A DNA stretch of 13,774 nucleotides from a virus (lineage: Duplodnaviria; Heunggongvirae; Uroviricota; Caudoviricetes): the IMG/VR virus record IMGVR_UViG_2778261448_000011, positions 1 through 13,774 of that record; one strand, 5' to 3'. The notes under the pieces are model-generated. The model searched no databases. It had not been told where the DNA came from and saw only the letters and a program-made list of their open reading frames with translations. The position numbers and the translations under genes were made by a program. Of the stretch, positions 6,892-8,577 are shown piece by piece; positions within the stretch are counted from its first letter, which is position 1, and each line of letters begins with the position of its first letter.

Positions 6892-7203
6892 ATGATGATT
6901 CTGACTCTGAATGATAAGCGTGAAATATCGCAAATAATCGCAAGTTTTACTGATGAAGATTACGAGCGAATCAACAGTGAAGTTGATCGCCTCTGCAAAC
7001 GTTGCGACCCAATAAGCGAAATGCTTCGCTCATATAAACCAGATGAACACACTAAGGACGCTATCGACTGGCTGGAAGATGATGACTGTAACTATCAGGA
7101 AAAAGCCGCTGAATGGTTCTGGGATGCAATAACCGAAAGAGTTAAGGCTGAATATGCCTTCGCAATATTCAAACGCAGACACATTTTTGGAGAATCAGCA
7201 TGA
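6892..7203 (+). CDS. Hypothetical acidic protein (103 aa) in the gam/abc slot upstream of recT
   Basis: RBS aggag (6883-6887) before ATG 6892; stop overlaps the recT start (ATGA at 7200-7203); no similarity to lambda Gam seen. Confidence 0.55.
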   Translation: MMILTLNDKREISQIIASFTDEDYERINSEVDRLCKRCDPISEMLRSYKPDEHTKDAIDWLEDDDCNYQEKAAEWFWDAITERVKAEYAFAIFKRRHIFGESA

Positions 7204-8111
7204 GCAATATCGTTGAATTCGTTAAACAGCAAGAGCAGTTATTCTGCGGAGCATTGACTGAACAGACGGTGACATGGGCTAAGGAAAGCCAGTTTGCAAT
7301 TCAGTATTTCCAGAAAAATGATTACCTGGCTAAAACAGCACTGGCAAATCCAACCAGCGCACAGAACGCCATCATCAATGTTGCGGCGATCGGCATCACC
7401 TTAAACCCGGCTAGCAAACTGGCTTATCTAGTTCCGCGCGACGGCATGGTGTGCCTTGATATCAGTTACATGGGATTGCTCCATATTGCAATGGAGTCTG
7501 GTGTTATCTCATGGGGTCAGGCAAAACTTGTTCATGCTAACGATACCTATGAGTCAAACGGGCTTGATAAAGCACCAACCCATAAATACAACGCCTTCGG
7601 TGATCGTGGTGATATCGTTGGCGTTTACTGCACAGTTAAGACGCCGGCAGGTGATTATCTAACGGAAGAGATGAGTCTGGCTGAAATTGAGGCTGTAAGG
7701 AAAACAAGCAAGGCAGCATTCAGCGATAAAGGACCATGGGTAAATCACTGGAATGAGATGGCGCGAAAGACGGTCGTAAAGCGTGCAAGCAAGTATTGGC
7801 CTAAGGCATCACGTCTTGATAGTGCTATTCACGTACTAAACGAAGAAGAAGGTGTATGGACTGAACCAGTTATGCCGCACAAATCAGAGGAAGATATCCG
7901 CGAAGATGAACGGAAACGCCAGCAGGAAATAATGGAAAAAGCACAACTTCTTTGTGATGAAATGGCTCAGGCTGAAAACATGGATGATTTGAAGCGATAT
8001 TTTGCAGAAGCATATCGCCTGACATCTGGAATGAAATTGCAGCAGAACGTACAAGCCATTTACATAGAATGCAAAGCGAAACTGGAGGTTGCCAGTGAGC
8101 AAACTATATGA
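7200..8111 (+). CDS. recT: RecT-family single-strand annealing protein
   Basis: 303 aa; KGPWVNHWNEMARKTVVKRASKYWP matches the conserved RecT core (E. coli RecT GPWVTHWEEMAKKTAIRRLFKYLP, from memory). Confidence 0.85.
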   Translation: MSNIVEFVKQQEQLFCGALTEQTVTWAKESQFAIQYFQKNDYLAKTALANPTSAQNAIINVAAIGITLNPASKLAYLVPRDGMVCLDISYMGLLHIAMESGVISWGQAKLVHANDTYESNGLDKAPTHKYNAFGDRGDIVGVYCTVKTPAGDYLTEEMSLAEIEAVRKTSKAAFSDKGPWVNHWNEMARKTVVKRASKYWPKASRLDSAIHVLNEEEGVWTEPVMPHKSEEDIREDERKRQQEIMEKAQLLCDEMAQAENMDDLKRYFAEAYRLTSGMKLQQNVQAIYIECKAKLEVASEQTI

Positions 8112-8577
8112 AATAGCCAATGAATACGCAAAATTGATGGATTCAGATTTAGAGCCAGAGATGATTGCTGACACAATAGAAGGCATGGAAGGAGAATTTA
8201 CCGATAAAATAGAGCAACTTCTCGCCATTATTAAAAATGAATCTGGTTATGCTGAACGCCTCAAGGAAGAGGCAAAGTCACTAAATGAGCGAGCCGCAGT
8301 AATTCAAAATAAGATTGACAGCATTATGGCGTATATAGCGTCATCGCTTGAAATGGTTGGCAAGAAAAAGATTCGAGCAGGTATTCACCAGGTAACAATC
8401 CGCAAACCGTCAGAAACTGTAGAAATCATCGACTCAAGCGCCCTTCCTCCTGAATACGTTGAGTTCGAAACGACAATTAAAGCCGACAAACTGGCAATCA
8501 AACACCAACTAAAAGCAGGAATAAATATCCCCGGTGCTCAACTCAAAGTTGGGAAACCTTCACTTCTTATCAAATAA
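8095..8577 (+). CDS. Siphovirus Gp157-family protein (coiled-coil, commonly paired with RecT/Sak)
   Basis: About 160 aa; LYEIANEYAKLMDSD...TIEGMEGEFTDKIEQL...VTIRKPSETVEIID...LPPEYVEF fits the Gp157 family pattern; likely GTG start at 8095 after RBS ggagg (8084-8088), overlapping the recT 3' end. Confidence 0.65.
   Translation: MSKLYEIANEYAKLMDSDLEPEMIADTIEGMEGEFTDKIEQLLAIIKNESGYAERLKEEAKSLNERAAVIQNKIDSIMAYIASSLEMVGKKKIRAGIHQVTIRKPSETVEIIDSSALPPEYVEFETTIKADKLAIKHQLKAGINIPGAQLKVGKPSLLIK

What the first reader, a model, noticed from the sequence alone, without database searches (positions are those of the whole stretch)
7200..8577. RecT and Gp157-like pair with no recognizable cognate exonuclease
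RecT-type annealing proteins normally partner with a 5'-3' exonuclease (RecE or lambda Exo type). Here recT is followed by a Gp157-family coiled-coil protein and small ORFs, with no obvious exonuclease gene adjacent. Gp157-family proteins have been linked to phage sensitivity phenotypes in Gram-positive phages; the function in this context is unclear.
Basis: partly seen in the sequence, partly recalled or inferred. Interest (0 to 1): 0.4.

Follow-up and report, generated by a model that had tools for sequence, protein, structure and literature searches.

The report
Known exonuclease-free phage recombination module
This is the ordinary, already catalogued recombination cassette of a lambda-like E. 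coli prophage: a RecT DNA-annealing protein sits next to a Gp157 protein (classed as Mu-Gam-like, DNA-end-binding) and an Abc1-like protein, and the cassette really has no nuclease of its own, as in about a third of such phage modules.

Summary
RecT (7200-8111) is followed by a Sipho_Gp157 protein (true start GTG 8095, end 8577). No ORF of the early-left operon matches a lambda Exo, RecE, DnaQ or HNH nuclease.

The window is a lambdoid prophage early region. This module is about 97-98% identical to those of phages HK140, mEpX1, Gally and Kapi1. Zheng et al. 2025 list HK140 as "SAP-4 + MuGam, no nuclease" and report that 84 of 246 lambdoid Rec modules lack a nuclease. Misson et al. 2023 call the Gally genes recT-gam-abc1.

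The unit is a four-gene cassette:
- an acidic 103-aa ORF
- recT
- gp157
- an Abc1 homologue

The first three genes overlap; the fourth starts 11 nt after gp157. It occurs in 266 of 5,426 complete E. coli genomes. None of 166 related viral loci has a lambda-Exo homologue.

This RecT carries a P22-Erf-type C-terminal domain. RecT relatives that sit next to lambda Exo carry a Beta-type, Exo-binding domain in two of four cases examined. So the missing nuclease looks like design, not an annotation gap.

A PD-(D/E)XK (MmcB-like) ORF at 10475-10990 is not linked to the module. Verdict: already known, low interest.

The parts
6892..7203 (+). o6892: 103-aa acidic protein (net charge -9) of unknown function. 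Its stop overlaps the recT start (ATGA). It is the first gene of the cassette and sits where P22 has arf and where related modules have a lambda-Gam-like gene.
   Evidence: phrog_3486 'unknown function' E=1.1e-58, no Pfam or NCBIfam match. Present upstream of recT in 77 of 80 near-identical loci. In diverse loci the same slot holds a phrog_1050 'gam-like host nuclease inhibitor' in 64 of 86. No detectable homology to that Gam-like family (hhalign probability 0.8%). A 48%-identical homologue precedes the RecT-Exo pair of Cronobacter phage ENT47670.
7200..8111 (+). recT: single-strand annealing protein, 303 aa. Annealing core is about residues 1-230, followed by a charged linker and a C-terminal domain.
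   Evidence: PF03837 E=3.8e-32; phrog_148 E=4.7e-92; TIGR00616 above cut-off; below the Rac RecT equivalog cut-off (101.8 against 296 bits). 99.7% identical to the RecT of Lambdavirus PDP110P1; 66-75% identical over the core to RecTs that pair with Exo.
7950..8087 (+). Erf-type C-terminal domain of RecT (residues 251-296), predicted to be a partner-docking domain.
   Evidence: 57% identical to the C-terminus of the Erf protein of Pantoea phage PdC23 (E=2e-14). A profile of RecT C-terminal domains against P22-type Erf C-terminal domains gives hhalign probability 93.9%, E=1.6e-7. No similarity to the lambda Beta C-terminal domain. In mosaic relatives it is inherited with gp157, not with the RecT core (148 of 149 and 1383 of 1405 discordant pairs).
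8095..8577 (+). Gp157-family protein, 160 aa: a long helix plus a C-terminal beta domain. Classed as a Mu-Gam-type DNA-end-binding, anti-RecBCD protein.
   Evidence: PF05565 E=1e-36; phrog_253 'Mu Gam-like end protection' E=2e-53; PF07352 sub-threshold but collinear (E=0.008). 18 of 143 diverse family members also match PF07352, best E=6e-7. hhalign of a deep profile against Mu Gam gives E=0.0013, probability 18%. AlphaFold2 model pLDDT 77. The HK140 homologue is listed as MuGam in PMC12315714.
8589..8903 (+). Abc1 homologue: 104 aa, basic (net charge +8), with two helix-turn-helix-like repeats. It starts 11 nt after the gp157 stop.
   Evidence: phrog_323 E=2.8e-20, the same PHROG that P22 Abc1 matches (E=1.3e-23). 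Family against P22 Abc1 family: hhalign probability 96.2%, E=2.6e-9, 78 columns. BLASTP E=5e-5 to phage Mu gp9, the gene next to Mu gam. Present at a fixed offset in 80 of 80 near-identical loci; replaced by clear P22-Abc1-like proteins in 17-18 diverse loci.

Best explanation
WHAT IT IS. The region is the general-recombination (Rec) module of the early-left (pL) operon of a lambdoid E. coli prophage. It is of the known nuclease-less HK140/Gally type. It forms a tightly packed four-gene cassette: o6892 (acidic, unknown function), recT, gp157 (Mu-Gam-like) and an Abc1 homologue. The first three genes overlap and the fourth follows after an 11-nt gap.

SHOWN:
- the family assignments;
- the conserved cassette architecture;
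- the complete absence of lambda-Exo homologues in 166 related loci, and of any RecE-, DnaQ- or HNH-type match in the window itself;
- the chimeric build of this RecT, which joins a RecT annealing core to a C-terminal domain homologous to that of P22 Erf. Two of four relatives with the same core that sit next to a lambda-Exo homologue instead carry a clear lambda-Beta-type C-terminal domain. That domain is known to dock Exo and SSB.

INFERRED MECHANISM:
- After induction, transcription from pL, antiterminated by N, expresses the cassette.
- The Gp157 dimer binds double-stranded DNA ends, as Mu Gam does, and keeps RecBCD off phage DNA.
- RecT anneals single-stranded phage DNA to complementary single strands.
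- That single-stranded DNA is supplied not by a phage exonuclease but by host activities (RecJ/RecQ-type resection, residual or modified RecBCD) or by replication forks.
- The Erf-type C-terminal domain recruits RecT to that substrate through a partner other than Exo. The partner could be Gp157, the Abc1-like protein, o6892 or a host protein.
For: Context: cI, N, cIII, Kil, Xis and Int flank the module, and int-xis is 98.3% identical to lambda.

Identity with known phages: 97-98% DNA identity to HK140, mEpX1, Gally and Kapi1, whose records carry 'RecT' and 'Mu Gam-like end protection'.

Literature:
- HK140 = SAP-4 with no nuclease, no SSB and MuGam; 84 of 246 modules lack a nuclease.
- The Gally genes are named recT-gam-abc1.
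- Phages with Abc2 lack an exonuclease and are proposed to hijack RecBCD.

Cassette: RecT lies next to gp157 in 165 of 166 loci. o8589 is present in 80 of 80 and o6892 in 77 of 80 close loci. Exo is present in 0 of 166. The cassette is in 266 of 5,426 complete E. coli genomes.

Abc1 homology: hhalign 96%.

C-terminal domains: the window's is Erf-type (hhalign 93.9%). The RecTs of P13803 and ENT47670 are 54-55% identical to the Beta C-terminal domain and are followed by Exo proteins 87% identical to lambda Exo. The Beta C-terminal domain binds Exo and SSB (PMC6393309).

Gp157 and Mu Gam: PHROG annotation, collinear sub-threshold Pfam hit, 18 of 143 bridging members.
Against: My own tests of the Gp157-Mu Gam link are weak:
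- The window protein scores 16.6 bits against a 28.3-bit Pfam cut-off.
- hhalign gives probability 1-18%.
- BFVD returned only Gp157 relatives.

In 64 of 86 diverse RecT-Gp157 loci a lambda-Gam-like RecBCD inhibitor is also present. A pure anti-RecBCD role for Gp157 would then be redundant.

The Beta-type pattern is not uniform among Exo-partnered relatives. The Yersinia phage RecT matches Beta only weakly (24% identity) and the Vibrio phage RecT not at all.

The Erf-type C-terminal domain also occurs in Erf proteins whose neighbour is an SSB or Abc1/Abc2 rather than Gp157. Seven Erf loci have a Gp157-family gene without a recognisable domain of this type. So this domain is not specific to Gp157, and its co-inheritance with gp157 may be simple linkage.

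No experiment shows which nuclease, if any, does the resection. Deleting recT-gam-abc1 from Gally still allowed virion production and lysogenisation, so the module is dispensable under those conditions.
Confidence: 0.65

Rival explanations
1. Gp157 is not mainly a RecBCD blocker. It is RecT's dedicated end-targeting partner and takes the place of Exo. The gene order gam-like/o6892, recT, gp157 mirrors lambda's gam, bet, exo. On this view Gp157 is a nuclease-free, Ku-like end binder that recruits RecT through the swappable C-terminal domain, and a host enzyme does the cutting.
For: Gp157 occupies the position of exo, directly downstream of the annealing-protein gene and overlapping it. In 64 of 86 diverse modules a lambda-Gam-like inhibitor is also present, so a second anti-RecBCD function would be redundant. 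In mosaic relatives the RecT C-terminal domain goes with gp157, not with the core. The Erf core of PdC23 carries the same domain and a 61%-identical Gp157.
Against: The same C-terminal domain family occurs in Erf proteins without any Gp157 nearby, with SSB or Abc1/Abc2 as neighbours. Gp157 also occurs with Erf proteins that lack a recognisable domain of this type. Within diverse loci, identity of this domain to the window and identity of Gp157 to the window are uncorrelated (rho about 0). Adjacency alone explains the co-inheritance. No interaction data or complex prediction was obtained.
Confidence: 0.2
2. A cognate nuclease is present but unrecognised. The PD-(D/E)XK protein at 10475-10990 (or another small ORF) supplies the resection for RecT.
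Against: The ORF is found in only 4 of 80 loci with a near-identical cassette and in 0 of 86 diverse loci. It is absent from HK140. It lies 1.9 kb downstream of gp157, behind five unrelated ORFs in the mosaic 'ea' region. Its nearest folds are MmcB-like and endonuclease-like, not lambda Exo or RecE. The model is of moderate quality (pLDDT 70).
Confidence: 0.04
3. RecT works essentially alone, annealing single strands at replication forks as in oligonucleotide recombineering. Gp157, o6892 and the Abc1-like protein serve other purposes, such as counter-defence or regulation, and are merely co-located.
For: Some lambdoid modules consist of an annealing protein only (EhrS_49 class). The Abc1-like protein looks like a DNA-binding helix-turn-helix protein and PHROGs calls it a transcriptional regulator. 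End-binding proteins are known to interact with defence systems such as Gabija.
Against: The order and spacing are fixed, and the first three genes overlap across 80 loci. The same slots around annealing proteins are filled in other phages by proteins of known recombination function: Gam, Abc1, SSB and Exo. P22 Abc1 aids recombination.
Confidence: 0.08
4. The module is a decaying remnant that lost its exonuclease gene.
For: Zheng et al. themselves caution that one- or two-gene modules are 'somewhat suspect'.
Against: All four ORFs are intact and tightly packed, and the first three overlap. The cassette is present in plaque-forming phages (HK140, mEpX1, Kapi1, Gally) and in 266 complete E. coli genomes. 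The RecT has a different, conserved C-terminal domain rather than a decayed Beta-type one.
Confidence: 0.03

Closest known systems
Rec module of phages HK140, mEpX1, Gally and Kapi1 (SAP-4/RecT + MuGam, no nuclease, no SSB; Zheng et al. 2025; 'recT-gam-abc1' in Misson et al. 2023)
   Same: Same genes in the same order at 97-98% nucleotide identity: hypothetical 102-103-aa ORF, RecT, Gp157/MuGam-like, 104-aa 'D5-like regulator'/Abc1-like.
   Different: Nothing in the module itself. Only the flanks differ: here lambda int/xis, a different immunity region and a different set of 'ea' genes.
Phage P22 recombination module (arf, erf, abc1, abc2)
   Same: It also has no nuclease. An acidic small ORF overlaps the start of the annealing-protein gene. 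It has an Abc1 homologue (hhalign 96%). The annealing protein's C-terminal domain is homologous (hhalign 94%).
   Different: The annealing core here is RecT, not Erf. There is no Abc2. Gp157 lies between the annealing protein and Abc1. o6892 shows no sequence similarity to Arf.
Lambda Red (gam, bet, exo) and RecT-Exo modules of Stx phages and ENT47670
   Same: Same operon position after cIII and kil. The RecT core is shared at 50-66% identity with the RecT of Stx phage P13803, ENT47670 and Yersinia phage vB_YenM_22.
   Different: Those modules encode a lambda-Exo homologue (39-88% identical). The RecTs of P13803 and ENT47670 carry a Beta-type, Exo-binding C-terminal domain. The window has neither.
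Phage Mu Gam (Ku-like DNA-end-binding host-nuclease inhibitor) and its neighbour gp9
   Same: Similar size and the same helix-then-beta-domain layout. The weak profile similarity is collinear. An Abc1/gp9-type gene is adjacent in both Mu and the window.
   Different: The window protein belongs to Pfam Sipho_Gp157, not Phage_Mu_Gam (16.6 bits against a 28.3-bit cut-off). Mu has no annealing-protein gene next to gam. End binding by any Gp157-family protein has not, to my knowledge, been shown experimentally.

Membership tests
RecT family (PF03837 / TIGR00616) | Profile match above the curated threshold over the annealing core | tested here: met
   PF03837 scores 111.9 bits against a cut-off of 24; TIGR00616 scores 82.4 against 52.65.
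RecT family (PF03837 / TIGR00616) | Equivalence to Rac prophage RecT (NF007351 equivalog) | tested here: not met
   101.8 bits against a cut-off of 296. It is a RecT-family protein but not the Rac RecT orthologue.
RecT family (PF03837 / TIGR00616) | ssDNA annealing and strand-exchange activity | not testable with these tools
   Needs biochemistry or a recombineering assay.
Siphovirus Gp157 (PF05565) | Full-length profile match above the gathering score | tested here: met
   126.8 bits against 28.6, covering profile positions 1-162 of 162. All 143 diverse relatives also match.
Mu Gam / Ku-like end-binding proteins (PF07352) | Sequence-profile membership | tested here: inconclusive
   The window protein scores 16.6 bits against a 28.3-bit cut-off, though the match is collinear over profile positions 29-147 of 149. 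18 of 143 family members match PF07352, best E=6e-7. hhalign gives E=0.0013 at 18% probability, and E=0.045 with shallow profiles. PHROG 253 is annotated 'Mu Gam-like end protection'.
Mu Gam / Ku-like end-binding proteins (PF07352) | Ku-core-like fold | tested here: inconclusive
Mu Gam / Ku-like end-binding proteins (PF07352) | Dimer that binds dsDNA ends and blocks RecBCD | not testable with these tools
   Requires gel-shift and nuclease-protection assays.
Lambda-Red-type two-component recombinase (annealing protein + 5'-3' exonuclease) | Adjacent lambda Exo/YqaJ or RecE gene | tested here: not met
   No Pfam, PHROG or NCBIfam nuclease hit in any ORF of the operon. tblastn with two Exo proteins finds 0 of 166 related loci.
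Lambda-Red-type two-component recombinase (annealing protein + 5'-3' exonuclease) | Exo-docking Beta-type C-terminal domain on the annealing protein | tested here: not met
   No similarity of RecT residues 230-303 to Beta (best E=1.7). The RecT relatives of P13803 and ENT47670, which sit next to Exo, are 54-55% identical to the Beta C-terminal domain.
P22-type nuclease-less module (Arf, Erf, Abc1, Abc2) | Abc1 homologue next to the annealing-protein gene | tested here: met
   hhalign probability 96.2%, E=2.6e-9; shared phrog_323.
P22-type nuclease-less module (Arf, Erf, Abc1, Abc2) | Abc2 (RecC-binding RecBCD hijacker) | tested here: not met
   No blastp or tblastn hit in the window or in 166 loci; no ORF matches phrog_656.
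P22-type nuclease-less module (Arf, Erf, Abc1, Abc2) | Erf-type C-terminal domain on the annealing protein | tested here: met
   hhalign probability 93.9%, E=1.6e-7 against P22-type Erf C-terminal domains; 57% identity to the C-terminus of PdC23 Erf.
HK140-type Rec module (SAP-4 + MuGam; Zheng et al. 2025) | Same gene set and order at high nucleotide identity | tested here: met
   97.8% identity to HK140 across the module; gene-for-gene correspondence gp42 to gp39.
PD-(D/E)XK nuclease superfamily, MmcB-like (ORF 10475-10990, considered as a hidden partner) | D...(D/E)xK catalytic motif and restriction-endonuclease-like fold | tested here: met
PD-(D/E)XK nuclease superfamily, MmcB-like (ORF 10475-10990, considered as a hidden partner) | Genetic linkage to recT, as expected of a cognate exonuclease | tested here: not met
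   Present in 4 of 80 near-identical and 0 of 86 diverse RecT-Gp157 loci.

The most novel reading that the evidence does not exclude
Gp157 is the functional replacement of Exo rather than of Gam. On this reading it is a nuclease-free, Ku-like end binder that hands DNA ends, processed by a host enzyme, to RecT or Erf through the swappable Erf-type C-terminal domain. The frequent co-occurrence of Gp157 with a lambda-Gam-like inhibitor would then be complementary, not redundant. Annealing-protein C-terminal domains would be a readable code for which partner a phage recombinase uses.
Probability: 0.2. Interest if true: 0.6.

Novelty: already known. Interest (0 to 1): 0.22.

Why it matters
As a finding it matters little. 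The module is common, occurring in about 5% of complete E. coli genomes. It is already annotated and is catalogued in a 2025 survey as one of 13 functional types of lambdoid Rec module.

Some genuinely open questions remain:
- what supplies single-stranded DNA to an annealing protein when the phage brings no nuclease;
- what Gp157, Abc1 and the acidic upstream ORF do at the molecular level.

The domain-swap pattern found here (Erf-type against Beta-type C-terminal domains on the same RecT core) gives a concrete handle for experiments. It could also help in choosing or engineering RecT proteins for recombineering without Exo.

Tried and rejected
1. Hidden Exo/RecE among the downstream ORFs. Rejected by Pfam, PHROG and NCBIfam scans of all ORFs.

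2. ORF 10475-10990 as the cognate nuclease. It has a PD-(D/E)XK fold, but is not linked to the module.

3. Direct blastp of o8589 against P22 Abc1 found nothing. Only profile-profile comparison and the shared PHROG showed the homology.

4. o6892 as a remote lambda Gam or Arf homologue. No support (hhalign 0.8%; blastp). Only a positional analogy remains.

6. Strict C-terminal-domain/Gp157 co-evolution:
- Identity-to-window correlations within diverse loci were null.
- The Erf-core contingency table did not support specificity: 7 loci have Gp157 without this domain, and about 17 have an Erf-type domain with SSB and no Gp157.
- I therefore downgraded 'the C-terminal domain binds Gp157' to a minority hypothesis and re-described the domain as Erf-type.

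7. Chi sites. There are none in the window, but only 0.29 are expected, so this is uninformative.

8. The supplementary tables of Zheng et al. are not held, so the exact class label of this module could not be read.
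Full report
CONTEXT

The 13.8-kb window is the early region of a lambdoid E. coli (pro)phage. On the minus strand at the left lie a DnaB-like helicase, an O-type replication initiator, cII and cro. On the plus strand, in pL direction, lie:
- a cI-type repressor (3029-3742);
- N (5069-5476);
- cIII (6488-6673);
- Kil (6658-6810);
- the region of interest;
- a run of 'ea'-type ORFs (DUF5405, DUF2737, P22-EaE-like, Ea22, DUF551, DUF4752);
- Xis (12508-12726) and Int (12704-13774).

The int-xis end is 98.3% identical to phage lambda.

THE OBSERVATION

ORF 7200-8111 is a RecT-family annealing protein: PF03837 E=3.8e-32, phrog_148 E=4.7e-92, TIGR00616 above its cut-off. It is not the Rac RecT equivalog.

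The next ORF is a full-length Sipho_Gp157 protein (PF05565, E=1e-36). Its real start is GTG 8095, not TTG 8089. All close homologues are 160 aa, and GGAGG lies 7 nt upstream of that GTG. The gene overlaps the end of recT by 17 nt. Its AlphaFold2 model (pLDDT 77) has one long helix (residues 21-88) followed by a small beta domain.

No ORF of the operon matches lambda Exo/YqaJ, RecE, DnaQ-like or HNH nucleases in Pfam, PHROGs or NCBIfam.

WHAT IS ALREADY KNOWN

The DNA of 6800-11700 matches 514 phage records. The module part is 97-98% identical to HK140, mEpX1, Gally, Kapi1 and others. Several of those records already name the genes 'RecT-like ssDNA annealing protein' and 'Mu Gam-like end protection'.

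- They use HK140 as the example of annealing-protein type 4 working 'with no phage-encoded nuclease', no SSB and a MuGam anti-RecBCD protein.
- 84 of the 246 modules lack a nuclease gene.
- The functional class 'anti-RecBCD + annealing protein, no nuclease' (prototype P22) has 46 members.

Misson et al. (PLoS Pathog 2023, PMC9928086) call the Gally genes recT-gam-abc1. They deleted them and still obtained particles that lysogenise. So the finding describes a known and common arrangement. The four-gene cassette is present, at 80% coverage or more, in 266 of 5,426 complete E. coli genomes.

THE UNIT IS A FOUR-GENE CASSETTE

I collected 166 related loci from IMG/VR: 80 with a Gp157 that is 98% identical or more, and 86 with Gp157 at 58-71% identity to the window.
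- RecT lies immediately upstream of gp157 in 165 of 166 loci.
- The 103-aa ORF 6892-7203, whose stop overlaps the recT start, precedes recT in 77 of 80 close loci.
- The 104-aa ORF 8589-8903 follows gp157 at a fixed offset in 80 of 80 close loci.
- None of the 166 loci has a homologue of lambda Exo, lambda Beta, or P22 Abc2, Erf or Arf.

ORF 8589-8903 IS AN Abc1 HOMOLOGUE

Direct blastp to P22 Abc1 fails. However:
- both proteins match phrog_323;
- a profile-profile comparison of the two families gives 96.2% probability, E=2.6e-9, over 78 columns;
- in 17-18 of the diverse loci the same slot holds a protein 38% identical to P22 Abc1;
- the ORF also resembles phage Mu gp9, the gene directly upstream of Mu gam (BLASTP E=5e-5).

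A MuGam-type gene and an Abc1/gp9-type gene are therefore neighbours in both Mu and this module. The function of Abc1 is unknown.

ORF 6892-7203 REMAINS UNKNOWN

It matches phrog_3486 and has no Pfam family. It is acidic (net charge -9) and occupies the slot of P22 arf. In 64 of the 86 diverse loci this slot holds a 94-aa protein of phrog_1050, 'gam-like host nuclease inhibitor', which is 39% identical to lambda Gam in 15 loci. I found no homology between the two (hhalign 0.8%), so only a positional analogy can be claimed. A 48%-identical homologue precedes the RecT-Exo pair of Cronobacter phage ENT47670. This ORF therefore travels with the RecT core, not with Gp157.

IS Gp157 REALLY MU-GAM-LIKE?

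My own tests are weakly positive at best:
- The window protein hits PF07352 below threshold (E=0.008), though collinearly over almost the whole profile.
- Among 143 diverse family members found by an exhaustive profile search (12,232 cluster representatives at E of 1e-3 or better), PF07352 ties with DUF7307 as the most frequent secondary Pfam match: 18 members, best E=6e-7. The remaining secondary hits look like coiled-coil noise.
- hhalign of a deep Gp157 profile against Mu Gam gives E=0.0013 at 18% probability, aligning the C-terminal beta domains. Shallow profiles give E=0.045.

The assignment therefore rests mostly on PHROGs and on the published classification. In Firmicutes phages, Mu-gam-like, DUF2483, DUF1351 and gp157 genes occupy the same position next to annealing-protein genes, which has been taken to imply analogous function (PMC8093625).

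WHY THE MISSING NUCLEASE LOOKS LIKE DESIGN

This RecT is a chimera. Its core (residues 1 to about 230) is 50-75% identical to RecTs of Stx phage P13803, Cronobacter phage ENT47670, Yersinia phage vB_YenM_22 and a Vibrio phage. All four are followed by a lambda-Exo homologue that is 39-88% identical to lambda Exo.

The RecTs of P13803 and ENT47670 carry a C-terminal domain 54-55% identical to that of lambda Beta. In the Yersinia RecT the similarity to Beta is weak, and in the Vibrio RecT none was found. The Beta domain binds lambda Exo and SSB in a crystal structure (PMC6393309).

The window's RecT has a different C-terminal domain (residues 251-296):
- It is 57% identical to the C-terminus of the Erf protein of Pantoea phage PdC23, whose module is Erf, HNH, Gp157.
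- At profile level it is homologous to the C-terminal domain of P22-type Erf proteins (hhalign 93.9%, E=1.6e-7).

P22 is the classic nuclease-less system, in which Abc2 is proposed to convert host RecBCD into the resecting and loading machine (PMC9836394). So where a clear Beta-type domain is present, a phage Exo is too. The window's RecT carries instead the Erf-type domain found in nuclease-less modules.

DOES THIS C-TERMINAL DOMAIN SPECIFICALLY PAIR WITH Gp157?

In favour: among 159 loci, pairs with discordant histories show that the domain follows gp157 rather than the RecT core.
- In 148 of 149 pairs the core is 95% identical or more and both Gp157 and this domain are below 80%.
- In 1383 of 1405 pairs the core is below 90%, Gp157 is 95% or more and this domain is 90% or more.
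- The partial rank correlation is 0.43 for this domain against 0.18 for the core.

Against:
- The domain and gp157 are adjacent, so linkage alone can explain the pattern.
- Within the diverse set, identities to the window are uncorrelated.
- In 80 Erf-core loci, about 17 have an Erf-type C-terminal domain followed by an SSB and no Gp157. Seven have a Gp157-family gene, mostly upstream, without a recognisable domain of this type.

I therefore treat 'the C-terminal domain docks Gp157' as a minority hypothesis.

THE ONE NUCLEASE-LIKE ORF

MECHANISM

Shown: the parts, their order and the absence of a phage nuclease.

Inferred: the cassette is expressed from pL. Gp157 caps double-stranded ends and shields them from RecBCD. 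RecT anneals single strands that host enzymes or replication forks expose. The Erf-type C-terminal domain directs RecT to a partner other than Exo.

An open point is that most diverse relatives encode both a Gam-like inhibitor and Gp157. This argues that Gp157 does something beyond blocking RecBCD. It sits where exo sits in lambda.

VERDICT

The module is already known and catalogued, so interest is low. The residual value lies in three incremental points: the C-terminal-domain swap pattern, the Abc1 and Mu gp9 homology, and the alternation between a Gam-like gene and o6892 in the upstream slot.

Noticed in passing
window 10475-10990 (+): A 171-aa ORF with no Pfam family is a predicted PD-(D/E)XK (MmcB/SPO1766-like) nuclease-fold protein with invariant D40, E53 and K55. 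It belongs to a family of at least 324 uncharacterised enterobacterial prophage proteins and is a sporadic passenger of the 'ea' region.
   Followed up: yes
window 8589-8903 (+); L008 2483-2782 (phage Mu gp9): The Abc1-like protein resembles Mu gp9, the gene directly upstream of Mu gam (BLASTP E=5e-5). Both match the PHROG that P22 Abc1 matches. A Gam-type gene and an Abc1/gp9-type gene are therefore neighbours in Mu as well as in this lambdoid module, which hints at a functional pair.
   Followed up: partly
loci L090-L175 (e.g. L100 2796-3080): In 64 of 86 diverse RecT-Gp157 modules a lambda-Gam-like protein (phrog_1050) sits immediately upstream of recT. Many modules therefore carry two supposed anti-RecBCD proteins. 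Zheng et al. reported this only for HK639.
   Followed up: partly
L177 2178-2486 (Cronobacter phage ENT47670): A 48%-identical homologue of o6892 precedes a RecT (Beta-type C-terminal domain) plus lambda-Exo pair. This unknown acidic protein therefore accompanies the RecT core whatever the downstream partner.
   Followed up: partly
window 7200-7890 compared with loci L009-L088: In 43 of 78 near-identical cassettes the RecT core is only 81-90% identical to the window. The flanking o6892, the RecT C-terminal domain, gp157 and the abc1-like gene are 93-100% identical. The annealing core is thus a divergent patch inside a conserved cassette (two core alleles).
   Followed up: partly
window 1-1083 (-): A DnaB-like helicase ORF of 360 aa ends with a stop at the very edge of the window, yet its Pfam DnaB_C match stops at profile position 184 of 255. 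It may be truncated or frameshifted.
   Followed up: no
window 12225-13774, 5862-6025, 4492-4755, 10000-10110: Patches of 88-98% nucleotide identity to phage lambda (int-xis, a stretch between ea10 and ral, the pL/operator region, part of ea22) show the usual lambdoid mosaicism. The Rec module itself has no lambda similarity.
   Followed up: no
window 5485-5850 (+) and 5985-6455 (+): Two ORFs between N and cIII have no known function: a 121-aa ORF (phrog_3054), probably a membrane protein judging from its sequence, and a 156-aa ORF (phrog_8967). They are rare among related loci (10 and 6 of 80).
   Followed up: no
L005 4637-5224 (phage P13803 ORF20) and L006 4640-5227: In the RecT-Exo modules of Stx phages a conserved 195-aa ORF of unknown function directly follows exo. 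It was not examined.
   Followed up: no
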